Below are positions 19,815 to 48,110 of a stretch of DNA of 64,000 bases, one piece after another. Origin of the DNA: a virus; IMG/VR virus record IMGVR_UViG_3300045988_182772. One strand, 5' to 3'. A program made the position numbers and the translations under genes. Within the stretch, counting starts at the first letter, position 1. The number at the start of each line of letters is the position of its first letter. The notes below the pieces were generated by a model, which saw only the letters and a program-made list of their open reading frames with translations, searched no databases and had not been told where the DNA came from.

Positions 19815-19850
19815 TACTTTACAAATAAGATAAAGTGTGGTATAATATAA
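19815..19850 (+). promoter_or_regulatory. promoter cassette P1 (TTTACA-N17-TATAAT with extended -10 TGTGGTATAAT)
   Basis: tttacaaataagataaagtgtggtataatataagcgtaaag. Confidence 0.55.
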
Positions 19851-19872
19851 GCGTAAAGAAGAGGTGATTCCA

Positions 19873-20394
19873 ATGAAAGAACAAAATCTCACCAACCGCA
19901 CTGTATGGAGCCGTGAAGTGCTCAAGGGTTCCCTGGAGGGGCTTATTATCGCTCTTCTTTTGTTCCGAATCCTGTTCAATGTTGTTGTGGTGTCCGGCCC
20001 TTCTATGGTGCCGACGCTTGCGGACAATAGTGTGATTCTGACAAATCACATTAAGCCGAATCTGGAGTTTGAGAGCATTGTTGTTTGCAATTCGAGCGGT
20101 CTGGATGAAAATATCGTTAAGCGCATTATTGGTTGCCCCGGTGATACCATCGACATTGATTTCGAACAGGGGGTGGTCTATCGCAACGGAATCGCGCTGA
20201 GTGAACCGTACACGAATACCCCGACCAACATCGAATATGACGATGGCATATCGTTTCCTCTCACCGTGGAGGAGGACTATTACTTTGTGCTGGGGGATAA
20301 TCGAAACAACAGCCTTGACAGCCGTAGCTCCATTGTCGGATTGATTCCGAGAACGGACATCGAGTCGTCCTATGTACTCACTATCATCGGGTAA
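19873..20394 (+). CDS. signal peptidase I (S26 family)
   Basis: SGPSMVPTL (catalytic Ser box). GDNRNNSLDSRS. RIIGCPGDTI. Confidence 0.8.
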   Translation: MKEQNLTNRTVWSREVLKGSLEGLIIALLLFRILFNVVVVSGPSMVPTLADNSVILTNHIKPNLEFESIVVCNSSGLDENIVKRIIGCPGDTIDIDFEQGVVYRNGIALSEPYTNTPTNIEYDDGISFPLTVEEDYYFVLGDNRNNSLDSRSSIVGLIPRTDIESSYVLTIIG

Positions 20395-20414
20395 TCATTG
20401 AAAAACAAGAAGAA

Positions 20415-20455
20415 GGCCTATGAGCGGGATTCCGTTCATAGGTCTTTTACTTTTG
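20415..20455 (+). terminator. rho-independent terminator
   Basis: cctatga...tcatagg followed by tcttttactttt. Confidence 0.55.
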
Positions 20456-20551
20456 AAAATCCGCAAAAAAATTGACTTTTGAATGAAAGGTTGTAATAAT
20501 AAAAGCGTAGGGCAATAAGATGCCCAAAATAACGCAAAGGAGGCAATAGCA

Positions 20552-21805
20552 ATGGTCAAAAAAGATGGAGCAGCTGCTTCAATCGAGGAAAACGCTGAAG
20601 TGCAGGCTCCCGCTGAGGAACAGAGCAACGTCCAATCCTCCACCGCAGAGAGCGTTGAAACGCAGGCCCCCAATGAGGAGGACGCAGAGATGCAGGCACT
20701 CTTTGAAGGGCTTGATGGAAACGAACCTGAGCAGTCCGGCGCGGAGGAAACCGCTCCCAAAGGGAAGCCTACCCGTGCTGATGTACTGAGGGAGGCAAGA
20801 CGGCGGAGAGCGGAAAGAAGTGAGTCTGTCCGTGCTTATCAGGAGTTTCTTATCGGACTTTCTTCGTTGACGGTCGCAGCCAAAAACCACAGCATCGTAA
20901 ACGGTCTCGTCTCTCATATTGAGCAGCGAAACGATGTGGATTCGGAAGTTCCCTGTGTCATGATTATCGCGCTCGTAGAGGGCCGCTACAAGGTTTCCAT
21001 TCCCTTTGACGAGTTTTATCAGAAGAATCCCATTGATATGGCGACGGTAAATATGGAAACTAAGGCCGGTCGTGAAGAGTACGTCAACCGCTGCGCTACG
21101 ATGGCGGCAAAGTTGTATTCCCTGAATGTGCCGATGGTGATTACGACTATCCAGGTCGATGAAAGCACCGATGCTGAAGCCGGAGTTCCGGCTTATGTCA
21201 TTGTCGCGTCCCGTAAGGCTGCGCTCGACATTATTGAGGAGGCAAATTACGGAGACCGACCTGACGGTGATGGCCCGCGCATTCAGGAAGGCGATTTTGT
21301 TCGTGCTCAGATTACCTCTGTGGCACGCGACAGCATTGCCGTTGTGGTTGGCGGAGTCGATACGCGGGTGTCGCTCCACGCCCTGACTTTCGAGTACCTT
21401 GTTGACGCGAGAACCAAATACAAGGTGGGGCAGGAAATTATGGTTCAGGTAGAACAAATCATCAAAGAGAAAGATGGCCACCACATCGTCGAGGTGAACT
21501 GTAAGCAGCCTGAGTTGGAGCGTGCGAAGCAAATGCGCAGTGCTCTTCCAATCGGCTCCATCGTGTTTGGCATCGTATCTTCCGTGGCTGCGAGTAAGAA
21601 GCAGCCTGGGAATATCAATGTGTTGGCGTATATCAAGATGTACGATTTACCCGTACTCGTGAACAATATGCCTGCGAAATTCCTTGGGAGCGAGCCTCCG
21701 CGTGGTTCGACCGTCCGGCTGAAGGTTCTTAATTATTTGGACAACGGGATGATTCTGTGCCGGTGCATCGGCACCCAAGGCCCCATGAATTTCCCCAACG
21801 CCTGA
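20552..21805 (+). CDS. hypothetical protein with acidic N-terminus (417 aa)
   Basis: Promoter ttgact-N17-tgtaataat upstream. RBS aaggagg. No recognisable motif. Confidence 0.4.
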   Translation: MVKKDGAAASIEENAEVQAPAEEQSNVQSSTAESVETQAPNEEDAEMQALFEGLDGNEPEQSGAEETAPKGKPTRADVLREARRRRAERSESVRAYQEFLIGLSSLTVAAKNHSIVNGLVSHIEQRNDVDSEVPCVMIIALVEGRYKVSIPFDEFYQKNPIDMATVNMETKAGREEYVNRCATMAAKLYSLNVPMVITTIQVDESTDAEAGVPAYVIVASRKAALDIIEEANYGDRPDGDGPRIQEGDFVRAQITSVARDSIAVVVGGVDTRVSLHALTFEYLVDARTKYKVGQEIMVQVEQIIKEKDGHHIVEVNCKQPELERAKQMRSALPIGSIVFGIVSSVAASKKQPGNINVLAYIKMYDLPVLVNNMPAKFLGSEPPRGSTVRLKVLNYLDNGMILCRCIGTQGPMNFPNA

Positions 21806-21816
21806 CGACCGTTTCG

Positions 21817-21860
21817 GTGCGGCTCCCCTCCACTCGGAGTCGGAGCCGCGCTTTTCTTTG
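21817..21860 (+). terminator. rho-independent terminator
   Basis: gcggctcc...ggagccgc followed by cttttcttt. Confidence 0.55.
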
Positions 21861-22000
21861 AAACGGCTTTTTTGAAAGGAGGCTTGCATTCTCGTGAGCG
21901 ATAAGCGTAACGAGGACTTGAAACAGTTCATTATTCCAGAAAATTTTATGGGAGAATCCAGACTATTTCAAGGGCAGTTAAAGACACGCAATGTAGTGGA

Positions 22001-22759
22001 TTGATTTCGGGGGTATTGGCAATTTTCTTTTGGAATGTCATTTCAGTTCCTATCACCACAAAAATATCCCTGGTCATATTCCTTTCCGCACCACTTGGCC
22101 TGCTTGGCTTGTTTGGAGTGAACGGCGACCCGCTGTCCACCTTTATCAAGATTTTCTTTTCATGGCGAAGAAAACGGGGGCTGATGCTGTTCAACAACGA
22201 AGCACGAGCGTTGAAGGAAGCCCCCATTAAGCTCATGATGTCGGAAGATGGCATGGGCGACAAACTCAGGGATTTTCTGGATACCAGAAAGGAAAAGAAG
22301 GCCGCCGAACGGGCGAGTCAGGAGATGGTTGAAGGCAAAACATTCGAGTTTGCACCTGACAGTTCACTTGAGGGCAACTACATTGATGAAGATGACGATG
22401 GCGATGGAACGCCGAGCGGCAGCGCCGGCAATCGCCATAAAACAAAGCACAACCAATCCTTCGTTGAAGTGGAAGTCCTGGAAGAGGATGACGATACCTC
22501 GTTGGAACTGGACGGATTTACGGAGGATATCGACAGCAGCACCGTTGAGGAATCTGGTCTGCCGTTGCCGGATTTGGGCGGGGCCGACGATGTGGAATTG
22601 AGCAACGATGACACTAACGAGATGCCTGACGCCGAGGAATCTGACGATAATCCCCCCGCGTGTGAAACGCAACTGGAGCCTGCGGCAGAGGATAATTCTG
22701 ACGCCGAAGGCGACGCGGATGGGGAAGATGAAGAACTTGACGAGGAGGATTTGTTTTAA
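22001..22759 (+). CDS. VirB3-like small membrane protein with acidic C-terminal tail (precedes VirB4)
   Basis: Two TM segments at the N-terminus. Long D/E-rich tail. Stop overlaps the VirB4 start (TAATG). Confidence 0.4.
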   Translation: MISGVLAIFFWNVISVPITTKISLVIFLSAPLGLLGLFGVNGDPLSTFIKIFFSWRRKRGLMLFNNEARALKEAPIKLMMSEDGMGDKLRDFLDTRKEKKAAERASQEMVEGKTFEFAPDSSLEGNYIDEDDDGDGTPSGSAGNRHKTKHNQSFVEVEVLEEDDDTSLELDGFTEDIDSSTVEESGLPLPDLGGADDVELSNDDTNEMPDAEESDDNPPACETQLEPAAEDNSDAEGDADGEDEELDEEDLF

Positions 22760-25251
22760 TGTCCAGAAAACTGAAGCAAGTAATAAGCTGCCAATCTTTC
22801 TCGCCCATAAGTGATGTCCGTGACGGCATCATCGTCACGAAAGACGGGAAATTTGTGAAGTTGATGGAGTTCTCTCCTATCAACTACGGCTTACGGTCAA
22901 ACGAGGATAAGAACATGATTACGGCACAATATGCGGCCGCAATCCGCTCGTTTCCAAGCGTTGTCCAAATCAAAGTTCTGTCCAATCGCGCAAATGTCGA
23001 ACACTATATTTCCGGCATGGTGGAAAGCGTGCGCCATGAAAAGAATGAAGGAACCCGTGAACTGATGCGGGAGCAAATCGACATGATGTCAGAATTTGGC
23101 GCATCGCAAGGCGTATCCCGTCGCTTCTTTCTCGCATTCCAGTATGAGGAAGAAGAGGGATTCGCACATCGTTCACCATCATGGAATGAAATCAGAAGCA
23201 CCATTACGAGACAGGAGGACGCCATCAGAAGCAACCTTCGGGCCTGCGGCAACATTATGATTTCAAGGCCTCACGATGACGTCTATGTGCTTTCCACGCT
23301 TTACGATATCATGTCCAGAGCACAGAGCGCGAACCACCCGTTTGACGAGAGAATGGCGGATGTTGTTGCCCGATATACGGCGGCAAACATCGACTTCACG
23401 CGAGATAGCGCGGCGCATCTTCCTGTCAATGATGTGCTTGCTCCGTACTGCATTGATACGGAGTCAAGTCCCCGATATATCATCGTGGATGGCATCTACT
23501 ATATGTGCTGCTATCTTCCGAGCAATGCCTATCCTGTGCGCGTTCTTGGCGGCTGGATGCAGCTGCTGGCAGGGCTGGGAGAGGGGATTGATGTGGATGT
23601 TTGGCTTCAGAAGATTTCACCGGAGAAAATTCAAACGGCACTGCATCATGGCCTGCGGTTCAATGCAATGCGCTTCCGCAACACAGAAACCACCAGTAGT
23701 GACTACGATGATGTGAAGGCTGCGGTGGACGCAGGATACTATCTGAAAAGCTCTCTCGCGGCCGGCGACGAATTTGCCTATATGTCTACAATGCTCACTA
23801 TTACAGGCGAAAGCGAGCGAGAAATTGACTACAAATTCAAGGAAATCCGGCGCATTTTCATTGAGAGAGAATTGACTCTCAAGCCTTGTACTTTCCAGCA
23901 AGCAGAAGCGTTTCGCTCCACCATTCCCGTATGTGAGTATGACAAAAACCTATTCCGTAAGAGCCGCAGAAATATTCTGTGTTCTGATTTTGCGTCCACC
24001 TATATGTTCACATCTTCGGAGCTGTGCGATAAGGACGGCGTGATGCTGGGCGTGGATGATGTGTTCAAATCACCGGTTCTGGTCAACTTCTTCGACCGCC
24101 AGCAATACATCAATGCCAACATCAATATTGTCGGCTCCTCTGGCTCCGGTAAGACCTTCACCACGCAGGTTCTGGCTTTGAGAATGCGGGAGAAGGGGGT
24201 TCAAACCTTCATTATCGCGCCGCTGAAAGGCAAGGAGTTCCTGCCGCTTTGTGAGAAGGTCGGGGGCAGTTTCATTGAAATCAAACCTGGCTCCGGACAG
24301 AATATCAATATCATGGAGATACGCAAGAAGGAAGAGGGCAACGTCTACGATGACGATGGTGCGTTGGTCACTTCCGGCTCGATTTTGGCACAGAAAATCC
24401 AGCAGCTTCTCATTTTCTTTAAGCTGATTATCCCGGACATGACGCCAGAAGAGGTGCAGTATGTGGATGACGCGCTGCTGAAAACTTACGGCAATTTCGG
24501 AATTACCCATAAGAACAAGAGCCTGTTGGACCCCAACGACAAGAAGAAATACCGTAAAATGCCTATCCTTTCGGATGTATATTCTGAGCTGGAAAAGATG
24601 GGCGCACCAGCAAATCGTTTGTGCCGTTTGCTGACGCGATACACCACAGGTTCTGCATCTTCGTTCAACGCGCAAACCAATGTGAACCTTAACAACAAGT
24701 TCGTAGTGCTGGATGTTTCCGATGCGCAGAAAGACTTTCTTCCTGTGGCTATGTTCCTTGCATTGGATTATGTTTGGGATAAATGCAAAGAAAATCGGAA
24801 CGTCAACAAGTGTGTTTTCATTGACGAGACTTGGCGCTTGGTCTGCTCCGATGCACCTATCGAAGCCGCCAATTTCGTGGTCGAAATCTTCCGTACTATC
24901 CGAGGCTTCGGTGGAAGCGCCGTCGCTGCCACGCAGAATATCGCAGACTTCTTCTCTGCGGGAATTGGCACCGCCATCATCGGAAACGCCAAAATCAAAA
25001 TGATTTTGCGCAGCGAAAAAGAGGAAGCAAACGCGATTGCGGATGCGATTGGTCTGACCGACGAGGAACTCAAGCGTGTAAAAACCATGGACCGTGGAAC
25101 CTGTCTCCTGACCGCAAATGAGAACCACATTTTCATCAATGTTAAGGCGACGGATACGGAAGAATACCTGATAACGACTGACCCCAAAGCAAGAGCCGCT
25201 GCGAAGCGCCGAATTGAGCAGAAGCGTACTTGCGCTGCCTTCAGGCGCTGA
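22759..25251 (+). CDS. VirB4-family T4SS ATPase (TcpF/CagE/TrbE-like)
   Basis: Walker A GSSGSGKT. Walker B VFIDETWRL. 830 aa. Confidence 0.85.
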   Translation: MSRKLKQVISCQSFSPISDVRDGIIVTKDGKFVKLMEFSPINYGLRSNEDKNMITAQYAAAIRSFPSVVQIKVLSNRANVEHYISGMVESVRHEKNEGTRELMREQIDMMSEFGASQGVSRRFFLAFQYEEEEGFAHRSPSWNEIRSTITRQEDAIRSNLRACGNIMISRPHDDVYVLSTLYDIMSRAQSANHPFDERMADVVARYTAANIDFTRDSAAHLPVNDVLAPYCIDTESSPRYIIVDGIYYMCCYLPSNAYPVRVLGGWMQLLAGLGEGIDVDVWLQKISPEKIQTALHHGLRFNAMRFRNTETTSSDYDDVKAAVDAGYYLKSSLAAGDEFAYMSTMLTITGESEREIDYKFKEIRRIFIERELTLKPCTFQQAEAFRSTIPVCEYDKNLFRKSRRNILCSDFASTYMFTSSELCDKDGVMLGVDDVFKSPVLVNFFDRQQYINANINIVGSSGSGKTFTTQVLALRMREKGVQTFIIAPLKGKEFLPLCEKVGGSFIEIKPGSGQNINIMEIRKKEEGNVYDDDGALVTSGSILAQKIQQLLIFFKLIIPDMTPEEVQYVDDALLKTYGNFGITHKNKSLLDPNDKKKYRKMPILSDVYSELEKMGAPANRLCRLLTRYTTGSASSFNAQTNVNLNNKFVVLDVSDAQKDFLPVAMFLALDYVWDKCKENRNVNKCVFIDETWRLVCSDAPIEAANFVVEIFRTIRGFGGSAVAATQNIADFFSAGIGTAIIGNAKIKMILRSEKEEANAIADAIGLTDEELKRVKTMDRGTCLLTANENHIFINVKATDTEEYLITTDPKARAAAKRRIEQKRTCAAFRR

Positions 25252-25281
25252 TTTCAATGGAAAAAACTATTTACAAGAGAG

Positions 25282-28394: not shown

Positions 28395-28414
28395 CTGCAT
28401 GAGGAGGATACAGC

Positions 28415-31161: not shown

Positions 31162-31205
31162 CAGACAGGTGGGACGTGTTCAGCGCCTCACCTGTCTTCT
31201 TCTAC
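31162..31205 (+). terminator. rho-independent terminator
   Basis: agacaggtg...cacctgtct followed by tcttct. Confidence 0.5.
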
Positions 31206-31211
31206 GCTAAA

Positions 31212-31240
31212 TTGACTTGTGAGATTTAAGTGGTATAATA
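31212..31240 (+). promoter_or_regulatory. promoter cassette P2 (TTGACT-N16-GTGGTATAAT)
   Basis: ttgacttgtgagatttaagtggtataat. Confidence 0.55.
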
Positions 31241-31271
31241 TATTTATAAAACAAAACTGGAGGTATGCTTA

Positions 31272-32765: not shown

Positions 32766-32806
32766 TACATAGCTGACTGCGGCAGACCCTTCCAAACAGA
32801 AGACAT

Positions 32807-32838
32807 CACTCCCTCGACAACGGGGGAGTGATTTTTTA
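32807..32838 (+). terminator. rho-independent terminator
   Basis: cactccctcg-acaa-cgggggagtg followed by atttttt. Confidence 0.6.
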
Positions 32839-32905
32839 CCGAATGGCGGCGTATAGCCCCTGGATTTATCCATGGGGATATAAGCCGCCCGTCCTCCTTT
32901 TTTCG

Positions 32906-32935
32906 TTGATTATTTCTTGGATTTGTGGTATAATT
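32906..32935 (+). promoter_or_regulatory. promoter cassette P3 (TTGATT-N17-TGTGGTATAAT)
   Basis: ttgattatttcttggatttgtggtataat. Confidence 0.5.
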
Positions 32936-32957
32936 TTGCTGGAAACGAGGTGAGAAA

Positions 32958-34070
32958 ATGGAATATTCGTACAAATTCAGAATTTATCCGAACACTGAGC
33001 AGCAAACGCTCATCCAAAAAACTTTCGGCTGCTCTCGGTTCGTCTACAACCATTTTCTCGCCCAGCGAATTGCGGAGTACAATGCCACGGGCAAAGCCCC
33101 CACACGGTTCCAGCAGGACAAAATGCTAACCTCGTTAAAGAAAGAACTGTTGTGGCTCAAAGAAGTGGACTCCACTGCCTTGCAATCTTCTCTACAAACG
33201 CTTGATTCTGCGTATCAGAACTTCTTCCGGCGGGTAAAGAACGGTGAGAAACCTGGCTATCCCAAGTTTAAGAGCAAGAAGAACCATCGGAAGTCCTACA
33301 AAAGCAAGTGTGTCGGGACGAACATCAAAGTAGTTGGGAAGTGTGTCCAACTCCCGAAACTCGGCCTTGTGAAGTGCCGTGTTTCAAAAGAAGTCAGGGG
33401 CCGTATCTTGTCCGCCACCATCAGTCAGAACCCGTCCGGCAAATACTTTGCGGCCCTGTGCTGTGCCGATGTGGACATTGAACCTCTGCCCTCTACCGGG
33501 GCGGTGGTCGGCCTCGACATGGGCTTGAAGTCATTCGCAATCACCTCCGATGGGGTTGAGTACAAGAACCACCGCTACCTCCGCAAGAGCCAGAAGAAAC
33601 TTGCCCGTCTCCAGCGGCAGCTCTCCCGAAAATCAAAGGGGAGCAATCGCAGAGAGAAAGCACGGGTCAAAGTAGCGAGGCTCCACGAGAAGGTAACGAA
33701 CCAGCGGAACGATACCCTGCACAAGCTGTCCACCTCGCTTGTTCGGGACTATGACCTGATCTCCGTGGAGGACTTAGCATCCAAGAACATGGTGCGAAAC
33801 CACAAGTTGGCCCGGTCAATCTCGGACGCTTCCTGGGGCGAGTTCCGGCGGCAGTTGGAATACAAGGCGGCGTGGTACGGCAAGCGGGTGGTCACAGTTG
33901 ACCGCTTCTATCCTTCCAGCCAGCTATGCTCCTGCTGCGGCGCACAGTGGCCCGGCACAAAGGATTTGGACGTCCGGGAGTGGACTTGCCCGGTATGCGG
34001 CACGGTGCATGACCGTGACCACAACGCCGCTGTAAACATTCTTAACGAAGGTCTACGTCTCTTGGCGTGA
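32958..34070 (+). CDS. tnpB: TnpB (IS605 OrfB family RNA-guided endonuclease)
   Basis: RuvC-like motifs. C-terminal zinc finger [10 protein letters not shown]...[18 protein letters not shown]. 370 aa. Confidence 0.85.
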
Positions 34071-34190
34071 CCGATACATGGTAGGGCGGGACACGCCCGA
34101 ACCCATACGCTCAGGGAGACTATGTAAGACCTCGCAGGTGCAGGCAGCAGTCGCTGAACTGAGAATCCCCTGCCTTTAGGCATGGGGAGT
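34071..34190 (+). ncRNA. candidate TnpB right-end guide RNA (reRNA/omegaRNA) region
   Basis: GC-rich structured sequence directly 3' of tnpB (ggtagggcgggacacgcccgaaccc...). Confidence 0.35.
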
Positions 34191-34569
34191 GTCAATGAGG
34201 AGGAACTCTATGTTGAATGTAAAAACGCTGAAGGTCGTAGCTTTGCTTAACGAACTTGCGGAGAAGGAAAAGAACGGTATTAGGGAATTCAAAAACGCCG
34301 ACGAAGACAACAGAGAGACTTTCCTTTTCTACGATGCCGCGTGCTGTACGCGGCGGAAGGATGGAGCGTTGCTCTACAAGGTGCCGCGCGATATGTGCAT
34401 CATCGACGAGAAAGCGAATAAGCATCACGATATCATCTCCTACTATGGAGACGACGACTACGATGTGGTGGTCGTAGATAATGGCGAAGGAGAGCTTTTT
34501 TTGGAGGTGCATTTCGCCGCCGAGGAAGAGTTCGTTGAATTCAGCAATGGGGAGTGGTACTTCGCGTGA
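34189..34569 (+). CDS. small acidic hypothetical protein
   Basis: ORF. Start may be at the internal Met (34210). Confidence 0.3.
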   Translation: MSMRRNSMLNVKTLKVVALLNELAEKEKNGIREFKNADEDNRETFLFYDAACCTRRKDGALLYKVPRDMCIIDEKANKHHDIISYYGDDDYDVVVVDNGEGELFLEVHFAAEEEFVEFSNGEWYFA

Positions 34570-34601
34570 ATCACGCGAAGGCCGTTTCCATACGCATTAA
34601 A

Positions 34602-34632
34602 TTGACTTTTAAGCTAATGTGTGGTATAATAT
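34602..34632 (+). promoter_or_regulatory. promoter cassette P4
   Basis: ttgacttttaagctaatgtgtggtataatataagcataaag. Confidence 0.55.
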
Positions 34633-38990: not shown

Positions 38991-39057
38991 CGCAATGCGC
39001 GGCGTTAATGCCGAGTGCTCCCGTTGCTGGAGCGCTTAGACTATATATATCTACTTT

Positions 39058-39090
39058 ATTGACAAGTAAGGTTAAGTGTGGTATAATAAA
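39058..39090 (+). promoter_or_regulatory. promoter cassette P5
   Basis: ttgacaagtaaggttaagtgtggtataataaagcataaac. Confidence 0.55.
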
Positions 39091-39116
39091 GCATAAACTT
39101 AGAGGGGGTCGCGAAA

Positions 39117-40985: not shown

Positions 40986-40987
40986 AA

Positions 40988-41359: not shown

Positions 41360-41384
41360 TCGGCATTTTCAGGAGGAATGAACA

Positions 41385-42329: not shown

Positions 42330-42640
42330 GGGTGCGCCGGAAACTCCGGCTCAGCCTCCTGTCATTTGGTGTGGCTTATGACCCGCAAGGGTAGTAAGCC
42401 TCGTCAATAAGCCTCAGCCGCAAGGCTACGATATGCCGGAATACATAGGCACCGGCGGATACTCCACAAGTCCGCCGCTCTGCGGGTGCGTATTAAACAT
42501 CTCTGAGGGGAAGGAGAAGTGTGCGTACCATCAAACCCAGTGTATCTTTGGCGATGTGGACCACAGTAACGCCGTGCAAGCGGTAAGTGCTGATTTACCA
42601 AATTTTTGGTTTTTCTTGAAGCCTGTATCGAAGACTACCA
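42330..42640 (+). ncRNA. candidate tracrRNA-like / omegaRNA-scaffold transcript containing an anti-repeat to the downstream array. Boundaries approximate.
   Basis: cctgtcatttggtg at ~42358-42371 is the exact reverse complement of the repeat core caccaaatgacagg. GC-rich structured region. Weak terminator-like hairpin plus tttttggttttt near 42600-42640. Confidence 0.3.
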
Positions 42641-42651
42641 ACCTACATTGA

Positions 42652-42880
42652 GTTGATACCCCCGCCAAGTAGCTATACCCTATGGCGAATACAGCAATCA
42701 ACTCTCGATTGTTGACGTACCCCACCAAATGACAGGCAGCTATACCAATTTTACCGTCTTATTTCCTTGTCGAATAGTTGACGTACCCCACCGAATGACA
42801 GGCAGCTATACCGCAGCCCCCCCGCAAACGGAGCATCACGCACAGTTGACGTCCCCCACCGAATGACAGGAAACTGCACC
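42652..42880 (+). CRISPR. CRISPR-like mini-array: degenerate repeat (42652-42679), 36-nt repeats at 42711-42746, 42777-42812, 42845-42880, with unique spacers of 31, 30 and 32 nt
   Basis: Repeat 1 GTTGACGTACCCCACCAAATGACAGGCAGCTATACC. Repeat 2 identical except A17G. Repeat 3 GTTGACGTCCCCCACCGAATGACAGGAAACTGCACC. Upstream copy GTTGATACCCCCGCCAAG--TAGCTATACC. Spacers aattttaccgtcttatttccttgtcgaata and gcagcccccccgcaaacggagcatcacgcaca. Confidence 0.5.
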
Positions 42881-42904
42881 CGCAGCGTGAAAGGAAAAAA
42901 TAAG

Positions 42905-44299
42905 ATGCCAGTATGTGTTTTAAGTGCAAACGGTGAACGGCTGATGCCAACCGAAAATTACGGCAAAGTGCGCCATCTGCTGAAGGAGGGCCGCGCTGTG
43001 ATTGCAAAGCGAAACCCGTTCACCATCCAGCTGACCTACGAGACCAGTACCTATACTCAGTCCATCGAAATGTGCGTCGGCACCGGATATGAGCATATCG
43101 GCGTCAGCATTAAGACAAAGGCAAAAGAGGTCGTATCGCAGCAATATGATTTGCTCACGAACGAGCGCTCCCGCCATGACGACTGCCGAGTGCACCGCCG
43201 GACGCGCAGAAACCACCTGCGGTATCGGGCTGCACGGTTCAATAACCGTGTATCCATCAGAAAGCCCGGTTGGATTGCTCCGTCCCTGGATAATAAGGTG
43301 GAGCGGCACCTGGATATTATCTCCCGCTATCTGTCTGTCATGCCTGTCACGGATGTCTTTATCAAGGCCGCAACATACGATACACAGCTCCTTGCGGCGC
43401 TGGAGGCAGGGGAGCCTGTCCCGCAGGGCAAGGACTATCAGCATGGGCCGCAGTACGGCCACGATACGCTGCGGGAAGCGGTCTTTGAACGAGACCACTA
43501 TACCTGTGTGTATTGCAAGAGAGGCCTGAAAGACGGCGCTATCCTTCATGTCCATCATGCCTACTACTGGAAGGGTCTGCATGGGAACAGCATGAGGGAG
43601 CTTGCGACCTGCTGCGAGAAGTGCAACACACCTGCCAATCACAAGGAGGGCGGGAAGCTGTGGGGCTTCGATAAGCCTCTGCGGAAATATACCGGCGAAG
43701 CGTTTATGAATAGCGTGCGCTGGATTCTCTATCAGCGTGCGATGGCCCGCTTCCAGGGTGTTGCGGAAGTACACATGACCTATGGCGTCATCTCCAAGCG
43801 CGTCCGCACCAACCTCGGCCTCCCGTATTCCTGCGCTACGGATGCCTACTGCATGGGCGAGCTGCGTCCGGAAGCCAGATGCGAAACAGAGGTCTTCCAG
43901 AAATACAGGCGAAACAACAGAGTCCTATCCAAATTCTATGACGCCAAATATTACGACACACGGGAAAAGGGAGTTATCCGTTCTGGCAACGAGCTGTCCT
44001 CCGGCAGGACGAACCGCAATCATAACCTTGACGGCGAAAATCTGCGCCGGTTCCGTGGCTGTAAGAAGTCAAAGGGCCGAACCTCGACCAGAAAGCAGAG
44101 ATATGCCATGCAGCCGGGAGATATCGTGGTCTACGGCAATCGCAAATACGTTTCCAAGGGCTGCTCCAGCTATGGCAGGGCATTAAGCCTACTCACGGAT
44201 GGAAAGCCGCTTATGGTCAGCATGAAGAAAATCCAGCTTGTTCGTCATAAGGGCGGCTGGGTGCGGCTTCCCCATGCAGCAGCCGAGGCAAAAAAATAA
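42905..44299 (+). CDS. iscB: IscB-like RNA-guided nuclease candidate (PLMP-like N-terminus, RRxRR arginine-rich bridge helix, HNH), 465 aa. The RuvC-I catalytic Asp is not evident.
   Basis: MPVCVLSANGERLMPTENYGKVRHLLKEGRAVIAKRNPFTIQL (PLMP-like). HRRTRRNHLRYRAARF (RRxRR). HNH CVYCKR...HVHHAYYW...CCEKCNTPANH. RBS aaaggaaaaaataag then ATG. Track ORF 42863 trimmed because the upstream codons lie inside repeat 3. Confidence 0.6.
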   Translation: MPVCVLSANGERLMPTENYGKVRHLLKEGRAVIAKRNPFTIQLTYETSTYTQSIEMCVGTGYEHIGVSIKTKAKEVVSQQYDLLTNERSRHDDCRVHRRTRRNHLRYRAARFNNRVSIRKPGWIAPSLDNKVERHLDIISRYLSVMPVTDVFIKAATYDTQLLAALEAGEPVPQGKDYQHGPQYGHDTLREAVFERDHYTCVYCKRGLKDGAILHVHHAYYWKGLHGNSMRELATCCEKCNTPANHKEGGKLWGFDKPLRKYTGEAFMNSVRWILYQRAMARFQGVAEVHMTYGVISKRVRTNLGLPYSCATDAYCMGELRPEARCETEVFQKYRRNNRVLSKFYDAKYYDTREKGVIRSGNELSSGRTNRNHNLDGENLRRFRGCKKSKGRTSTRKQRYAMQPGDIVVYGNRKYVSKGCSSYGRALSLLTDGKPLMVSMKKIQLVRHKGGWVRLPHAAAEAKK

Positions 44300-44346
44300 C
44301 CACCTGCGGATAAACCGTGGGCGGTGGAAATTGACAAAGCGGGGCC

Positions 44347-44385
44347 TTTTTGGTAAGATAACAATGCTCCAAAAGGAGCCAGAAA
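44347..44385 (+). promoter_or_regulatory. sigmaA-type promoter (TTGACA-N17-TAAGAT) for the small peptide gene
   Basis: ttgacaaagcggggcctttttggtaagataac. Confidence 0.4.
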
Positions 44386-44441
44386 GGCGTTACCATATAC
44401 GGTAGGCGGTCGGCACTTCCCTGTGGAGGGAGGTGATGCCA

Positions 44442-44528
44442 ATGGTTACTTACGAATCGCTTTTTGCGTATTCTCTTGTTATCATCGGCCTTGTGGGTCT
44501 GATAGTTCAGATTTGCAAACGAAAATGA
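44442..44528 (+). CDS. 28-aa hydrophobic peptide with Lys/Arg C-terminus (type I toxin-like)
   Basis: MVTYESLFAYSLVIIGLVGLIVQICKRK. RBS ggagggaggtg 7 nt upstream. Followed by a hairpin atgaccg...cggtcat. Confidence 0.3.
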   Translation: MVTYESLFAYSLVIIGLVGLIVQICKRK

Positions 44529-44682
44529 CCGCCCCTCGCCAAAGGAAGACGGTCATTTCGTTTGACTCTATTCTCTTAGGCTGACCGCTTATCGGTATCG
44601 CCTTTCTGCTTTTATTATACACCAGCAAGCCGCTTTGTCAAGCAAGACAAGGCGGCTTTTGCCGTCGGAAAGGAGTTTTCCT

Positions 44683-45180
44683 ATGAAAAACATCATGCTC
44701 AGCATCCGACCTGAGTGGCTCCAGAAAATCCTGTCGGGCCAGAAGACCGTGGAGCTGCGCCTGTCCAGACCGAACCTTACGCCGCCCTTCATGGTATTTC
44801 TCTACTGCTCCTGCAAGGGTACAAAGAAGCCCGGTGAAATTCTTGAAATCCATAGCGGCGGCAAAATCTACAAGGCAAACGGTCTTGTGGTAGGGGAGTT
44901 TACCTGTACCGAAATTGACCGTGTGGTGCGCGTGGGCTATATGGGCAGCAACGCGCCGCTTCAATACTGTGTCAACGCACAACCTGGAAACTACACCCCA
45001 GCGGGGAAACTGTATGAGGACGCCTGCCTCACCGTGAAGCAAGCAGAGGACTACCTCTGTGGCCGCGTGGGATACGGATGGCACATCTCTGATGTGCAGA
45101 CCTATGACCGGCCCAAGAGCCTCGACTGCTTCGCACTTGCGAGAGCACCGCAGAGTTGGCAGTACGTCCACGATTTTTAA
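44683..45180 (+). CDS. ASCH-domain protein
   Basis: MKNIMLSIRPEWLQKILSGQKTVELR matches the ASCH N-terminal signature. RBS aaaggag. Confidence 0.5.
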   Translation: MKNIMLSIRPEWLQKILSGQKTVELRLSRPNLTPPFMVFLYCSCKGTKKPGEILEIHSGGKIYKANGLVVGEFTCTEIDRVVRVGYMGSNAPLQYCVNAQPGNYTPAGKLYEDACLTVKQAEDYLCGRVGYGWHISDVQTYDRPKSLDCFALARAPQSWQYVHDF

Positions 45181-45195
45181 GGAGGGATTCAAAAA

Positions 45196-45411
45196 ATGGC
45201 AAATTACAGAGTTTGTTTTCGGCTGCCCACATTTGTGGTACAGCTGAGCTTTGAGGCGGCAGAGAGGGATATCTCATACGAGGAAATTGCTGCATCCATC
45301 AACAAAGAGAAGGTCGCGGAACTTCTGTGTCTTGACGCACTGGGCTACAGTGCGGAAGACATAGAAATCATCACCCCGGAAGAGTATGACGAGGAGGTTG
45401 GAGCGGAATGA
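45196..45411 (+). CDS. small acidic hypothetical protein (71 aa)
   Basis: RBS aaggaggg. Confidence 0.35.
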   Translation: MANYRVCFRLPTFVVQLSFEAAERDISYEEIAASINKEKVAELLCLDALGYSAEDIEIITPEEYDEEVGAE

Positions 45412-46670
45412 ACACTGAGGAGCGTTTCCTGCTTCGCTCGTCAGTAGAATGGCGAAAGAATTTGATGCAGGATTGCTTGTGTATGCCGTGTGCTGAGTTC
45501 TCTGACTCTTTCGACGCAGCTGTAGACGCTGCCATCGCCACATTCCCTGAGTTGGAGCGGGAAGCTATCTTAAAACGCTACCGCGACGGTCTTACACCAA
45601 CACAATGCGCAAACGCACTGAAAATTGACATCGGCAAGTTCTACTCTTGCTTCGACCTCGCCATAAGGAGGCTGCGTCACCCCAAATATGCGGGGGGTAT
45701 CCTGAAAGAAATGCGCCGGTTTGCAGGCAGCCCTCTCGCCTCTGCTTTGAAGGAGGCCATTGAGAATGGCAACTGGAAAAAAATCGAGGAGTTGTGCGAT
45801 TCTGTTCCGTTTCAGTGCCTCAATTTCTCGACTCGCACCAAGAACTGCCTTATGTTCAGTGGTGCCCAAAGTATCGGCGATGTTGTTCGACTGATAGAGA
45901 GCGGCAAACTGAAGAATCTGCGCCAATGCGGGCAGGGGACCCTTCAGAATATTATCGACGTACTGGAAAAGGCTCTGCCGTTCCATTTCATCCTTGGAAA
46001 GCCAGCTCAATTCTGTCCGGAAACGAGTGATGCCTTCACCCGGAAGGAACACACTCGCCAGCTCTCTGCCATGCTGGAGCGATACATCGACCCGCGCAAC
46101 GACCCACGCATCTACTGGGCGAGAGAGGTCACATTCGACTACTCTACGAACCACAAAATCCGCGTGGACTATATGCGCTTTCAGCCGCTCAACAATTCGA
46201 CCTCCGGCATTGAGAAGGGGGACTTCTACGCCTACGAGGTCAAGTCCTCTGTGGAGGATTTCAAATCTCCTAACGGGCACAACTTCATCGCGGACTACAA
46301 CTACTACGTTATGCCCGCAGACGTCTTCGAAGCGGTGAAGGATACTGTGCCATACGGCGTCGGTGTGCTTTGCCCGGACGGCGGGCATCTGCGATGCGTG
46401 AGGAAAGCCGTGAGGAAGGACCGAACCAGACCGGTCAGCGAGATGCTGCTCATGCTGTGGCGCAGCTCACGAAGAGATTTTCCCGCCACTGACGTGGCCC
46501 CGGTAATGCACACCCGCTGGGCGCATCTTGGCGGGGACGAGTGGTGTTGCCCTGCGTGCGGCTTTGTCATTACCACTGAGGGCAGTTGGGACAAGCCTAC
46601 CAAAAAATACTGCGAGGATTGCGGGGCCAAGATGGACGGAGGTGCTGACCATGAAGACAGACAAGATTAA
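45408..46670 (+). CDS. regulatory protein with sigma-70 region-4-type HTH at the N-terminus and a C-terminal zinc ribbon
   Basis: ELEREAILKRYRDGLTPTQCANALKIDIGKFYSCFDLAIRRLRH (region 4-like). C-terminal CCPACG...CEDCG. Confidence 0.4.
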   Translation: MNTEERFLLRSSVEWRKNLMQDCLCMPCAEFSDSFDAAVDAAIATFPELEREAILKRYRDGLTPTQCANALKIDIGKFYSCFDLAIRRLRHPKYAGGILKEMRRFAGSPLASALKEAIENGNWKKIEELCDSVPFQCLNFSTRTKNCLMFSGAQSIGDVVRLIESGKLKNLRQCGQGTLQNIIDVLEKALPFHFILGKPAQFCPETSDAFTRKEHTRQLSAMLERYIDPRNDPRIYWAREVTFDYSTNHKIRVDYMRFQPLNNSTSGIEKGDFYAYEVKSSVEDFKSPNGHNFIADYNYYVMPADVFEAVKDTVPYGVGVLCPDGGHLRCVRKAVRKDRTRPVSEMLLMLWRSSRRDFPATDVAPVMHTRWAHLGGDEWCCPACGFVITTEGSWDKPTKKYCEDCGAKMDGGADHEDRQD

Positions 46671-47037
46671 CCAGCCTGAGTTCGCCCCGGAGGAGTGGCG
46701 GAAGGCGGCCATTATGTACGATACATCCTTTGCCTGGTGTAAAAATCAAATTTCAGCCTGGGGTAAGAATCAAATTTCATTTACACCGGGCTTTAACGAG
46801 ATGTTCGATGAAGCGCTGGACACACTTCCTGAGCGAAACCGCGATATCGTCCAAAAGTATTTTCGTGACAGAATGACGTTTTCGCAAATCGCCGACCTGC
46901 ACGGCACCAGCAGAAGCATAGTTCGCCATCTGTGTATCTGGACGGTATGGAGGGTCATGAATTTGATTCTGCTGCGAGAAGGAAGCAACCAAAATGCCGC
47001 GCCACAAACAGGCGGAGGAACTGAAGGTGGGTATTGA
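46651..47037 (+). CDS. small sigma-70 region-4-like HTH protein
   Basis: LPERNRDIVQKYFRDRMTFSQIADLHGTSRSIVRHL. In-frame ATG with RBS overlapping the upstream gene end. Confidence 0.4.
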   Translation: MKTDKINQPEFAPEEWRKAAIMYDTSFAWCKNQISAWGKNQISFTPGFNEMFDEALDTLPERNRDIVQKYFRDRMTFSQIADLHGTSRSIVRHLCIWTVWRVMNLILLREGSNQNAAPQTGGGTEGGY

Positions 47038-47521
47038 CATCAATAGCCTGCCGCTTTCCGCACAGATTCAGGTGCGTGCAAAGCTCGACGAGCAGAAGCG
47101 CGAACAGAACCAGCAGCGAACAAAAAAACAGTCGGAAGCACAGAAAAGGCAAAAACAGCCGAAAGAAGCGGACTCTGCTGAGCCATCCAAATATCGCAAT
47201 GTAAAGGTTTTCCGCGTGGTGGATGGAGAAACCGTGAAATTCCCCAGCAAGCGGGAGGCACGCCGCTTCGATGAACTGTATTTGCAGTACAAGGGCGGTG
47301 CAATCCAGGACCTGCGGCTCCAGCAGGACTTCACGCTGGTCGAGGGCTATACACGGCCAAATGGCAAGCGGGTTCGCCCAATGGTCTATAAGGCAGATTT
47401 CGTATACCTTCGCAACGGTAAACGCATCGTGGAAGACGCGAAGGGAAAACGAACCGAAAAGTATCTCATGAAACGCAAACTCATGTTGGAAAAGTACGGA
47501 ATCGAAATTTCGGAGGTGTAA
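46994..47521 (+). CDS. DUF1064-family protein (phage-type; basic N-terminus)
   Basis: SKREARRFDELYLQYKGGAIQDLRLQQDFTLVEGYTRPNGKRVRPMVYKADFVYL...VEDAKG fits the DUF1064 pattern. Confidence 0.45.
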   Translation: MPRHKQAEELKVGIDINSLPLSAQIQVRAKLDEQKREQNQQRTKKQSEAQKRQKQPKEADSAEPSKYRNVKVFRVVDGETVKFPSKREARRFDELYLQYKGGAIQDLRLQQDFTLVEGYTRPNGKRVRPMVYKADFVYLRNGKRIVEDAKGKRTEKYLMKRKLMLEKYGIEISEV

Positions 47522-47526
47522 TATCA

Positions 47527-48030
47527 ATGTTTGAAAACGGTAAGTTCCCAACGATTGAAGAGCTTTTGGAACGGGGAGAACACCTCATTCAGAAGGCAGT
47601 TGACGGAAAAAGATTAAGCGGCGAGGAAACGCATTTTCTCAAATTGCAAAATATATGGCTTGCGCAAAGGAGGGATGAACAGGAAAAAAACTGCGCGCGT
47701 CCTCTTGTGGAGCAGCTCAAGAAAACAACCCCCTTTGTGCAGGATGTATTCCGCAGCACCGAATATTCCGAGTTCGCCCTCTGGTGCATTGAGATTCTCA
47801 CTACCGCCAGCCGGCACAACGATGACGGCTCAAACGACATCTGCGGTTGTTGGATTACGGCAGACAACAGCACGACCTACGAGGAGATGTGTCGCCGTCT
47901 GGAAGGAGTGAAGACGAAAGCCGATATTCTGGCTCTCTCCACCACGCCAAGTACCGTTGAGGCAATCAGTACGGCCACACCGCGCTGGAGGGCGGAGGTG
48001 GAGCAACTCCGCGCACAACAGCAAAAATAG
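47527..48030 (+). CDS. hypothetical protein (167 aa)
   Basis: ORF with terminator at 48046-48076. Confidence 0.4.
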   Translation: MFENGKFPTIEELLERGEHLIQKAVDGKRLSGEETHFLKLQNIWLAQRRDEQEKNCARPLVEQLKKTTPFVQDVFRSTEYSEFALWCIEILTTASRHNDDGSNDICGCWITADNSTTYEEMCRRLEGVKTKADILALSTTPSTVEAISTATPRWRAEVEQLRAQQQK

Positions 48031-48045
48031 TCTCTCCCATCCTGA

Positions 48046-48076
48046 AAGGCCGTCAGCACATCGCTGGCGGCCTTTT
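48046..48076 (+). terminator. rho-independent terminator
   Basis: ggccgtcagcacatcgctggcggcc followed by ttttg. Confidence 0.55.
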
Positions 48077-48077
48077 G

Positions 48078-48110
48078 ATTGACAAGTAAGCTATTGTGTG
48101 GTATAATTGC
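48078..48110 (+). promoter_or_regulatory. promoter cassette P6
   Basis: ttgacaagtaagctattgtgtggtataattgc. Confidence 0.55.

What the first reader, a model, noticed from the sequence alone, without database searches (positions are those of the whole stretch)
19815..48110. Six near-identical strong promoter cassettes (TTGACA-N16/17-TGTGGTATAAT), sharing sequence even beyond the -10
The cassettes lie at about 19815, 31212, 32906, 34602, 39058 and 48078, in front of sipW-like signal peptidase, flotillin, tnpB, ung, the UvrD-like helicase and the sigma factor. Conservation extends into the spacer (AAGTAAGNTTAAGTGTGG) and the +1 region (ATATAAGCRTAAAG). That suggests a portable promoter module that has been copied in front of separately acquired cargo genes. 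Alternatively it is a shared operator or 5' leader for a common regulator. P5 and P6 are almost identical over about 35 nt.
Basis: seen in the sequence. Interest (0 to 1): 0.5.

Follow-up and report, generated by a model that had tools for sequence, protein, structure and literature searches.

The report
Promoter family of a gut conjugative element
The six boxes are real, strong housekeeping-type promoters that start separate, terminator-insulated operons of a conjugative element common in human-gut Oscillospiraceae; they share a short element-specific spacer motif, but they are not a mobile promoter cassette, so the finding is mostly ordinary.

Summary
All six sites exist at the stated coordinates. 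GTGGTATAAT is invariant and TGTGGTATAAT is exact in five. A -35-like hexamer lies 17 nt upstream (16 in P2), but only two of the six read TTGACA.

Each site follows a terminator-like hairpin and lies 22-35 nt before a start codon. They are sigmaA-type promoters with the Gram-positive TRTG extended -10.

The window is a conjugative element: T4SS coupling protein, VirB4-like ATPase, pilin, and its own SigA-like sigma factor. It occurs at about 98-99% identity in hundreds of human-gut contigs and in an Oscillospiraceae isolate.

The similarity goes beyond the generic consensus, but not in the way described. Related contigs add more promoters of this type, giving 12 distinct loci. These are enriched for T-27 A A G (C) T-22 in the spacer. 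AAG occurs in 7/12 against 2/141 generic promoters (p = 8e-8).

The '+1' similarity is confined to P1, P4 and P5 and drifts among near-identical relatives.

P3 is the TnpB insertion sequence's own promoter. The others have no repeat ends. They drive backbone genes such as parA, RNase H and sigma. P6 is absent from the one distant relative found.

Verdict: a new member of a known kind. The spacer motif is the only open point.

The parts
19818..19846 (+). P1: TTTACA-N17-TATAAT with TGTGG extension; spacer AATAAGATAAAG. Drives the S26 signal peptidase gene (ATG 19873).
20472..20500 (+). Drives the S1-domain gene at 20552.
   Evidence: (PWM score 14.2 against <=5.9 in shuffles)
31212..31239 (+). 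P2: TTGACT-N16-TATAAT with AGTGG; spacer TGTGAGATTTA. Drives the flotillin/Band_7 gene at 31272. A second allele in relatives has a 17-nt spacer and TGCGGTATAAT.
32906..32934 (+). P3: TTGATT-N17-TATAAT with TGTGG. This is the internal promoter of the TnpB insertion sequence and has no family spacer motif.
32840..34195 (+). TnpB insertion sequence (approximate ends): left-end hairpin, P3, tnpB at 32958-34070, then the right end.
   Evidence: The relative L006 is colinear up to 32839 and again from 34196, and carries a 70%-identical IS elsewhere.
34602..34630 (+). P4: TTGACT-N17-TATAAT with TGTGG; spacer TTTAAGCTAATG. Drives the UDG operon (34666 onwards).
39059..39087 (+). P5: TTGACA-N17-TATAAT with TGTGG; spacer AGTAAGGTTAAG. 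Drives the UvrD-like helicase operon (39117 onwards). Relatives carry a second allele with spacer ATCAAGCTAATG.
48079..48107 (+). P6: TTGACA-N17-TATAAT with TGTGG; spacer AGTAAGCTATTG. Drives the SigA-like sigma gene.
48130..49251 (+). Element-encoded SigA/RpoD-like sigma factor (regions 1.2 to 4.2, no region 1.1). The start codon is uncertain: gene callers on relatives give 373-392 aa.
10816..10826 (+). P0: doubtful relative (TGTGGTATAAG, poor -35). Lies after a strong terminator and before the VirB2/TrbC-like pilin ORF and the T4SS operon.
19748..19779 (+). Terminator-like hairpin plus T run directly upstream of P1.
20415..20454 (+). Terminator-like hairpin plus T run after the signal peptidase gene and upstream of P1b. 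It makes P1 a one-gene unit.
31163..31203 (+). Terminator-like hairpin with a T-rich tail upstream of P2.
32805..32837 (+). Terminator (12-bp stem plus TTTTT) after the flotillin gene, just before the IS left end.
34560..34580 (+). GC-rich hairpin upstream of P4 (weak T run).
39013..39036 (+). GC-rich hairpin upstream of P5 (no T run).
48045..48076 (+). Terminator-like hairpin plus TTTT directly upstream of P6.

Best explanation
The six boxes are functional sigmaA (sigma-70)-type promoters of the Gram-positive class with a TRTG 'minus-16' extended -10. They are the start signals of separate transcription units in a large conjugative element of human-gut Oscillospiraceae.

Each unit has the same layout: an upstream terminator-like hairpin, a near-consensus promoter, a very short 5' UTR holding only the ribosome-binding site, then the gene or genes. 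Because -35, TG and -10 are all close to consensus, host sigmaA RNA polymerase should start transcription without an activator. The element's own SigA-like sigma keeps the DNA-contacting motifs, so it should do the same. This gives strong, host-independent expression of backbone functions: signal peptidase, flotillin, UDG operon, UvrD operon and sigma in the window, and parA and RNase H elsewhere in the element.

Five of the six (all but P3) belong to a family of at least 12 distinct promoters in this element. The family also shares a position-specific spacer motif, T-27 A-26 A-25 G-24 (C) T-22, plus G-18. The motif is kept while neighbouring spacer bases vary. I therefore read it as a shared functional constraint, meaning an element-encoded factor or a special RNA polymerase contact, possibly on top of common descent.

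P3 is a different thing: it is the TnpB insertion sequence's own promoter.

Shown: the sequences, their statistics, their positions relative to hairpins and genes, and their variation among relatives. Inferred: that they fire, which polymerase uses them, and what reads the spacer motif.
For: - Sites and excess over chance.
- They are the top-ranked promoter-like sites in 40 kb.
- A GC-rich hairpin precedes every site, with a T run in P1, P1b, P2, P3 and P6. The -10 lies 22-35 nt from the start codon.
- Conjugative-element context (T4SS-DNA_transf, TraG P-loop/AAA_10, pilin, CHAP/lysozyme).
- A ~98%-identical copy on a 570-kb contig of Oscillospiraceae bacterium CM18GR_63, and hundreds of gut contigs.
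- Core elements are kept across alleles while flanks change (P2 alleles A/B, P5 alleles A/B, P6 variants).
- More promoters of the same type lie elsewhere in the element, driving parA, RNase H and others.
- Spacer motif statistics: A-26 10/12, A-25 11/12, G-24 9/12, T-22 9/12 against 0.17-0.30 in 141 generic promoters. AAG is 7/12 against 2/141, Fisher p = 8e-8.
- AAG is 0/13 in other extended -10 promoters from 110 kb of Clostridia/Oscillospiraceae DNA.
- The sigma's best matches are primary SigA/RpoD. The motifs FWIRQNITRA (region 2.4), IRKPIYVAE (region 3.0) and TRERVRQ (region 4.2) align to the sigmaA motifs that, from my own knowledge of sigma-70 structure, contact the -10, the TG and the -35.
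Against: - No transcription start or expression data exist, so function rests on sequence alone.
- P4 and P5 hairpins lack a clear T run, so insulation may be incomplete.
- The generic control set comes from phage contigs of mixed hosts, and the host-type control is small (13 sites). A host-wide preference for AAG at -26..-24 is not fully excluded. Two orthologous Oscillospiraceae tRNA promoters, found by a pattern that required TAAG, carry TTGACAAATAAG.
- The 12 family members were collected with a pattern that required GGTATAAT and a -35-like box. Weaker promoters of the element are therefore not sampled.
- Common descent without constraint could still explain part of the motif.
Confidence: 0.75

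Rival explanations
1. Shared operator. The spacer motif TAAG(C)T at -27..-22 is the binding site of an element-encoded regulator. Candidates are the small sigma-region-4-only protein at 46528-47037 or an unrecognised repressor. The regulator would sit between -35 and -10 and shut off the whole promoter family together. This is the 'strong promoters, tight shared repression' logic described for plasmid R388.
For: - The motif enrichment is position-specific while adjacent spacer bases vary.
- The motif is kept in both divergent P5 alleles and in P6 variants.
- TAAG-N1-2-TAAAG occurs three times in the window, all in P1 and P4, against 0.8 expected.
- R388 uses strong promoters tightly repressed by plasmid repressors (PMC3937220).
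- The sigma-r4 protein is retained in all close relatives.
Against: - The motif is only about 6 bp, asymmetric, and shows no consistent dyad or fixed-spacing direct repeat.
- No classical repressor was found in the window by Pfam.
- The N-terminal HTH and alpha-CTD-like part of the 45408-46670 protein is deleted in most relatives that keep the promoters.
- 5 of the 12 family members lack AAG.
Confidence: 0.25
2. Private promoters of the element's own sigma. The SigA-like sigma (48130-49251) prefers promoters carrying the spacer motif. P6 would then give positive autoregulation and the family would be a self-contained transcription programme.
For: - A sigma with all promoter-contact motifs is encoded in the element and is itself driven by a family member.
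- It is a distinct lineage, with only one sister cluster at 49% identity and about 40% identity to housekeeping sigmas.
- The spacer motif is element-specific.
Against: - The promoters are canonical sigmaA consensus, so host sigmaA should read them.
- No known sigma-70 region reads bases at -27..-22 (own knowledge).
- In the only distant relative found (L170), the sigma gene has no such promoter, and no TGnTATAAT-type site occurs in 9.8 kb. What travels with the sigma there is the other cassette class.
Confidence: 0.15
3. Portable promoter module. A ~40-nt promoter unit has been copied in front of separately acquired cargo genes, in the manner of phage morons.
For: - P1, P1b, P2 and P6 head one-gene units bounded by hairpins on both sides, which is moron-like.
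- P3 really is mobile, as part of a TnpB IS. A 70%-identical IS with its own TGTGGTATAAT promoter sits 8 nt after the -10 of P2 in a relative.
- The 20 nt AAGCTAATGTGTGGTATAAT are identical in P5 allele B and in P4.
- P6 is absent in the distant relative.
Against: - There is no similarity upstream of -35 beyond what unrelated promoters show.
- There are no inverted or direct terminal repeats.
- The genes behind the promoters are present in every close relative examined. The only gene-content differences seen near the six promoters are IS insertions (TnpB, IscB), plus one internal deletion in the 45.4-46.7 kb regulator region.
- The family also drives parA and RNase H, which are backbone functions.
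- The family-specific cassette occurs in no other IMG/VR contig.
- Conservation is position-specific rather than a decaying block.
Confidence: 0.1
4. Nothing beyond the generic consensus: six good sigmaA promoters that look alike only because all are near the optimum.
For: - GTGTGGTATAAT with a TTGACW -35 is common in unrelated Clostridia and Saccharibacteria genomes and in phage contigs.
- G at -13 is already the commonest base (38%) in generic promoters.
- The '+1' motif after GTGGTATAAT is found in at least 100 unrelated metagenome loci.
Against: - TAAG at spacer positions 3-6 is 0/142 in generic promoters.
- AAG is 2/141 in generic promoters and 0/13 in host-type DNA, against 7/12 in the element.
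Confidence: 0.05

Closest known systems
Gram-positive sigmaA promoters with the -16 'TRTGn' extended -10 motif (Voskuil and Chambliss, as cited in PMC6570832)
   Same: TTGACA-like -35, 17-nt spacer, T-17 R-16 T-15 G-14 n TATAAT. Five of the six sites match exactly, and P2 has RTG.
   Different: The family adds an element-specific T-27AAG(C)T-22 spacer motif and an invariant G at -13. Neither is part of the described consensus.
Promoter families of phages and other mobile elements (T4/T5/SPO1 early promoters, from my own knowledge; seen directly here in IMG/VR contigs L122, L069 and L090)
   Same: Several copies per genome of a near-consensus TTGACA-N12-TGTGGTATAAT promoter. Each genome has its own extra conserved positions in the spacer or +1 region.
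   Different: The element here is conjugative, with no phage structural genes detected. The extra conserved block lies at -27..-22.
Backbone regulons of conjugative plasmids: strong promoters with shared operators (R388, PMC3937220; IncP KorA/KorB, own knowledge)
   Same: Many strong promoters heading backbone operons of a transfer-proficient element. A short shared sequence overlaps the promoter.
   Different: No cognate repressor has been identified and no dyad or iteron architecture is seen at these promoters. Whether they are repressed is unknown.
Phage morons: independent transcription units with their own promoter and terminator (PMC3594210)
   Same: P1, P1b, P2 and P6 head single genes bracketed by a promoter and a terminator-like hairpin.
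   Different: Presence or absence does not vary among the close relatives sampled. Several units are multi-gene operons or backbone genes.
IS200/IS605-family TnpB insertion sequences with an internal tnpB promoter
   Same: P3 lies between the left-end hairpin and tnpB. A 70%-identical IS in a relative carries TTGAAA-N12-TGTGGTATAAT at the same place.
   Different: This applies to P3 only. P3 lacks the family spacer motif.

Membership tests
sigmaA/sigma-70 promoter with TRTG extended -10 | -35 hexamer with at least 4/6 matches to TTGACA, 16-18 nt before the -10 | tested here: met
   TTTACA, TTGACT, TTGATT, TTGACT, TTGACA, TTGACA. Spacer is 17 nt, or 16 in P2.
sigmaA/sigma-70 promoter with TRTG extended -10 | -10 hexamer TATAAT preceded by TRTGn | tested here: met
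   TGTGG-TATAAT in five sites and AGTGG-TATAAT in P2.
sigmaA/sigma-70 promoter with TRTG extended -10 | Intergenic position, correct strand, short distance to an SD and start codon | tested here: met
   22-35 nt from the end of the -10 to the start codon. All sites are intergenic on the coding strand, after a hairpin.
sigmaA/sigma-70 promoter with TRTG extended -10 | Transcription start 6-8 nt downstream of the -10 | not testable with these tools
   No RNA data are available.
Mobile promoter-bearing repeat (MITE- or IS-type) | Defined repeat ends (inverted repeats or target duplication), with similarity extending across a unit larger than the promoter | tested here: not met
   Upstream flanks are no more alike than in unrelated promoters and the alignment shows unique flanks. 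The exception is P3, which lies inside a TnpB IS.
Mobile promoter-bearing repeat (MITE- or IS-type) | Copies present in unrelated genomic contexts or other elements | tested here: not met
   The family-specific pattern has only 2 IMG/VR hits, both on this element. Among the genome-contig hits, only the same element matches the window.
Phage-type moron / independently acquired cassette | Own promoter and own terminator flanking the gene | tested here: met
   P1, P1b, P2 and P6 units. P4 and P5 head longer operons.
Phage-type moron / independently acquired cassette | Patchy presence among otherwise colinear relatives | tested here: not met
   All units are present in the close relatives examined. 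The only insertions or deletions seen near them are IS elements.
Operator-sharing plasmid regulon (R388/IncP type) | The same short sequence overlaps many promoters of the element | tested here: met
   AAG at -26..-24 in 7/12 against 2/141.
Operator-sharing plasmid regulon (R388/IncP type) | Operator with dyad or repeat architecture and an identified cognate DNA-binding protein | tested here: inconclusive
   No consistent dyad was found. TAAG-N-TAAAG is duplicated only in P1 and P4. No repressor was identified by Pfam.
Alternative-sigma promoter class | -35/-10 consensus different from the housekeeping one | tested here: not met
   The consensus is canonical TTGACA/TGnTATAAT. The element's sigma keeps the housekeeping DNA-contact motifs.

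The most novel reading that the evidence does not exclude
The spacer motif T-27AAG(C)T-22 would be a true fourth promoter element read by an element-encoded protein, either the SigA paralog or the sigma-region-4-only protein. That would give this very abundant gut conjugative element a private promoter class that is switched on or off together. The second cassette class (GGTTCY octads, TATGCT/TATACT, leader with a terminator-like hairpin) would add a two-tier, self-contained transcription programme.
Probability: 0.2. Interest if true: 0.65.

Novelty: new member of a known kind. Interest (0 to 1): 0.3.

Why it matters
On its own this is routine promoter annotation: strong consensus promoters on a mobile element.

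It is useful in three ways:
- It gives a ready set of strong, probably host-independent promoters for Oscillospiraceae, where genetic tools are scarce.
- It maps the transcription units of an element present at ~99% identity in hundreds of human-gut assemblies.
- It isolates one concrete, testable oddity. A 6-bp spacer motif is shared by most promoters of the element and is not seen in generic promoters. It might mark co-regulation by an element-encoded factor.

Tried and rejected
- Megablast of 17-41 kb against PLSDB plasmids and INPHARED phages found no match.
- The strict pattern TTGACA-N15-18-TGTGGTATAAT gave 0 hits, because the gap was counted to TGTGG rather than to TATAAT.
- The sigma homology search was saturated by 99%-identical copies and reached no distant relatives. 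The representative search gave one sister cluster, P0122 at 49%.
- P0122 is absent from IMG/VR. It was recovered through the search for homologous proteins and the look-up of encoding contigs, but only on contigs of 9.8 kb or less. That contig corresponds to window 44.6-54.5 kb, so of the six only P6 could be compared.
- The '+1' motif scan of metagenomes returned mostly unrelated loci, so it says nothing about portability.
- The search for a common dyad or operator found only short A/T-rich inverted 5-7-mers (CTTTA...TAAAG) at variable spacing. I rejected these as a rigid operator.
- Conditional on the 29-nt pattern, the remaining free spacer positions of P1, P4, P5 and P6 are not significantly more alike than in generic promoters (p about 0.1). 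Downstream is marginal (p about 0.03) and upstream shows nothing.
- Rfam gave nothing relevant to either cassette class.
- A literature search for the 11-mer and for the element gave nothing relevant.
- PHROGs gave no phage structural hits, so the IMG/VR 'viral' label is not supported by gene content.

Full report
**Observation.** TGTGGTATAAT is exact at 19836, 32924, 34620, 39077 and 48097, and AGTGGTATAAT lies at 31229, all on the + strand. With one mismatch allowed there are 8 hits against 0.36 expected. TATAAT occurs 13 times in the window, and the only six copies preceded by TGG (TGGTATAAT) are these six. The -35 hexamers are TTTACA, TTGACT, TTGATT, TTGACT, TTGACA and TTGACA. The spacer is 17 nt, or 16 nt in P2. 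The consensus scan puts them at the top of its lists for 19-58.5 kb. The genes behind them are an S26 signal peptidase, a Band_7/flotillin protein, TnpB, a UDG-family protein, a UvrD-like helicase and a sigma-70 family protein. 'TTGACA' and 'near-identical' are overstated. P5 and P6 agree at 25 of 29 positions between -35 and -10 and not downstream.

**Context.** All genes in the window run on the + strand. The window encodes a T4SS coupling protein (17454-19730), a VirB4/TraG-type ATPase (22759-25251), pilin-like proteins, a CHAP/lysozyme hydrolase, ERF, a primase-like protein, and no recognisable phage structural genes. It has no close match among deposited plasmids or phages. A ~98%-identical copy lies on a 570-kb contig of Oscillospiraceae bacterium CM18GR_63. 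The sigma protein occurs at 99% identity on hundreds of human-gut contigs, some 370-450 kb long, and on IMG/VR contigs up to 136 kb. This is a widespread conjugative element of gut Oscillospiraceae. The 370-570 kb contigs suggest it is integrated in at least some genomes.

**Anatomy.**
- Every site is preceded by a stable GC-rich hairpin. A T run follows it in P1, P1b, P2, P3 and P6. It is weak or absent in P4 and P5.
- The -10 ends 22-35 nt before the start codon.
- With a start about 7 nt after the -10, the 5' UTR would be about 15-28 nt. That is room for a Shine-Dalgarno sequence and little else.
- P1, P1b, P2 and P6 head single genes bracketed by hairpins. P4 and P5 head operons.
- A position-weight scan adds one weaker member, P1b at 20472 (TTGACT-N17-AATAAT with TG), before the S1-domain gene.
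- TGTGGTATAAG at 10816 is a doubtful relative before the pilin/T4SS operon.

**Is the similarity more than consensus?** I used 142 unique TTGACA-N12-TGTGGTATAAT sites from unrelated IMG/VR contigs as a control.

| Feature | Generic control | Window |
|---|---|---|
| TAAG at spacer positions 3-6 | 0/142 | 4/6 |
| AAG at spacer positions 4-6 | 2/142 | 4/6 |
| AAGCR within 2 nt after the -10 | 1/142 | P1, P4, P5, plus P1b and the minus-strand promoter at 44641 |
| G at -13 | 38% | 6/6 |

The same control shows that phage contigs often carry 3-5 copies of exactly this promoter type, each with its own extra conserved positions. L122, for example, has five copies of TTGACAAAT...TGTGGTATAATATATACAGA. 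A promoter family on a mobile element is therefore a known kind of thing.

**The family is larger than six.** A scan with a different conserved cassette of this element (see below) brought in other parts of the element from IMG/VR. They hold further promoters of the same type:
- in front of a ParA-type ATPase (TTGACAATCAAGCTGTTGTGTGGTATAAT);
- in front of RNase H;
- in front of a 491-aa protein (TTGACTTTTRAGTTAATGTGTGGTATAAT, nearly the P4 sequence);
- in front of several small proteins;
- in front of a 454-aa protein whose middle and C-terminal part aligns to the first ~1.2 kb of the window.

The enrichments over 12 distinct non-IS loci, compared with the generic set, are:

| Position | Family | Generic frequency |
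|---|---|---|
| A-26 | 10/12 | 0.28 |
| A-25 | 11/12 | 0.30 |
| G-24 | 9/12 | 0.17 |
| T-22 | 9/12 | 0.20 |
| G-18 | 8/12 | 0.26 |

AAG at -26..-24 is 7/12 against 2/141 (Fisher p = 8e-8). No downstream position is clearly enriched. Thirteen other extended -10 promoters in 110 kb of Clostridia/Oscillospiraceae DNA have no AAG there. The extra conservation is thus a spacer motif, T-27AAG(C)T-22, and not a '+1' or leader block.

**Variation among relatives.**
- P2 has two alleles. Both keep TTGACT, GTGAG and GGTATAAT but differ at several other positions and in spacer length.
- P5 has two alleles with unrelated upstream sequence and a diverged UTR. Both keep TTGACA, AAG, T-22 and GTGTGGTATAAT.
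- P6 varies only at spacer position 2 and downstream.
- The '+1' block is not held. P5 reads AAAACATAAAC in most relatives. P1 reads ATAGACGTAGAG in CM18GR_63, which is three changes in 12 nt against about 2% divergence overall.
- A metagenome scan for GTGGTATAAT-N0-2-AAGCRTAAA found at least 100 unrelated loci, so that block alone is not diagnostic.

**Portability.**
- P3 is the TnpB insertion sequence's own promoter. The IS spans about 32840-34195.
- In CM18GR_63 a 70%-identical IS, also carrying TTGAAA-N12-TGTGGTATAAT before tnpB, sits 8 nt after the -10 of P2, and the 5' part of the flotillin gene is missing.
- For the other promoters nothing marks a mobile unit. Upstream flanks are unrelated.
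- The family-specific pattern has no hits in IMG/VR outside this element.
- Gene content behind the promoters is constant in close relatives, apart from IS insertions.
- The divergent P5 module in some relatives runs from about 37.7 kb to 41365, so its left edge is not at the promoter.
- In the one distant relative recovered (L170, 9.8 kb, proteins 48-80% identical, colinear with 44.6-54.5 kb), the sigma gene has no such promoter and the contig has no TGnTATAAT-type site. P6 is therefore lineage-specific.

**The sigma.** The protein at 48130-49251 matches primary SigA/RpoD best, at about 40% identity. It has regions 1.2 to 4.2. Its FWIRQNITRA (2.4), IRKPIYVAE (3.0) and TRERVRQ (4.2) motifs align to the sigmaA motifs. 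From my own knowledge of sigma-70 structure, those motifs contact the -10, the TG and the -35. The protein has a single sister cluster at 49% identity. It should read TTGACA/TGnTATAAT, so it may use these promoters, including its own. Nothing shows that it does.

**Mechanism.** The best reading is that these are activator-independent, near-consensus sigmaA promoters that start terminator-insulated units of backbone genes. That gives strong expression in any suitable host. The spacer motif is position-specific, which argues for a shared constraint rather than plain descent. What imposes the constraint is unknown. It could be an element-encoded repressor or activator, the sigma paralog, or a host polymerase preference that my controls missed. 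I found no dyad or fixed repeat. TAAG-N1-2-TAAAG is duplicated on both sides of the -10 only in P1 and P4.

**Comparison with what is known.**
- The core matches the Gram-positive TRTG extended -10 class (PMC6570832).
- The multi-copy family resembles phage early-promoter families (own knowledge).
- It also resembles plasmid backbone regulons built from strong promoters under shared repressors (R388, PMC3937220).
- The one-gene units resemble morons (PMC3594210) but do not vary in presence.

**Verdict.** This is a new member of a known kind. The only open point is the spacer motif. Interest is 0.3.

Noticed in passing
window 2925-3045, 7331-7450, 49398-49520, 51438-51555, 54628-54750, 58628-58745; also L170 4455-4562, 6235-6354, 9110-9233: A second and much more elaborate repeated intergenic cassette, with six copies in the window. 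Its core is about 95 nt: GCCGGTATGCTGAGACCATACAAAAGAAGTATC..AAAGAAARTTCAGTCAGCG-loop-CGCTGGCTTTTATATAT, followed by an SD and a start codon. It holds a -10-like TATGCT (TATACT in the distant relative) and a terminator-like hairpin whose stem changes by compensatory substitutions. It heads the units at 0-10.7 kb and 49.3-64 kb. It is conserved in the 48-80%-identity relative that lacks the TGTGGTATAAT promoters, and it has no Rfam match. Related UViGs carry nine or more copies per contig.
   Followed up: partly
window about 7265-7300, 49345-49375, 51395-51425, 54560-54605, 58575-58600; L415 and L386 next to the parA promoter: Octad direct repeats GGTTCYNN (for example GGTTCTTCGGTTCTCAGGTTCC) lie a fixed 35-36 nt upstream of the TATGCT/TATACT of the second cassette class. 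In inverted orientation they lie immediately upstream of the parA promoter and of the promoter opposite to it. They look like binding sites for a global regulator or a centromere-like protein.
   Followed up: partly
window 42403-42566 (HEARO RNA) and 42863-44299 (RRXRR/IscB-like ORF); element about 42355-44255: An IscB-type element with its HEARO/omega RNA (Rfam RF02033, 87 bits). It is absent from many ~98% relatives, which join 42354 directly to about 44216. Other relatives carry IscB copies at 41365/41366 and just downstream of the sigma gene.
   Followed up: partly
L006 (Oscillospiraceae bacterium CM18GR_63), equivalent to window 31247-32452: In this relative a TnpB IS is inserted right after ...TATAATATATTTAT, 8 nt past the -10 of P2, and the first ~1.2 kb of the flotillin gene is missing. 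Several metagenome contigs also end about 830 nt into the flotillin gene or right at P2, which suggests recurrent IS activity here.
   Followed up: partly
window 44331-44359 (+), 44423-44584 (+), 44614-44641 (-): A 30-residue hydrophobic peptide (MPMVTYESLFAYSLVIIGLVGLIVQICKRK) gives a weak Hol_Tox match (E = 0.006, below threshold); the listed ORF 44423-44584 is longer than this peptide, so its exact coordinates were not settled. It lies downstream of TTGACA-N17-TAAGAT and faces a perfect convergent TTGACA-N16-TATAAT on the minus strand. This is the layout of a type I toxin-antitoxin pair.
   Followed up: partly
window 45396-46656: The 420-aa protein has a sigma-r4-like HTH, an RNA polymerase alpha-CTD-like domain and a nuclease-like C-terminus. 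It is polymorphic: most relatives lack 45397-46040 and encode a 170-aa version. The small sigma-region-4-only protein downstream is always kept.
   Followed up: partly
L001, L010, L013-L015, L017, L020, L023, L025 (Saccharibacteria genomes): Nine of the 31 genome hits to the TAAG-containing promoter pattern are from Candidatus Saccharibacteria. Most read TTGACTTTTAAG...GTGTGGTATAAT. This suggests a recurrent promoter type in that phylum, unrelated to this element.
   Followed up: no
window 48130-49251: The element's sigma is a near-orphan lineage of primary-type sigma factors. Among 1.84 billion representatives it has one sister cluster at 49% identity, and everything else is about 40%.
   Followed up: partly
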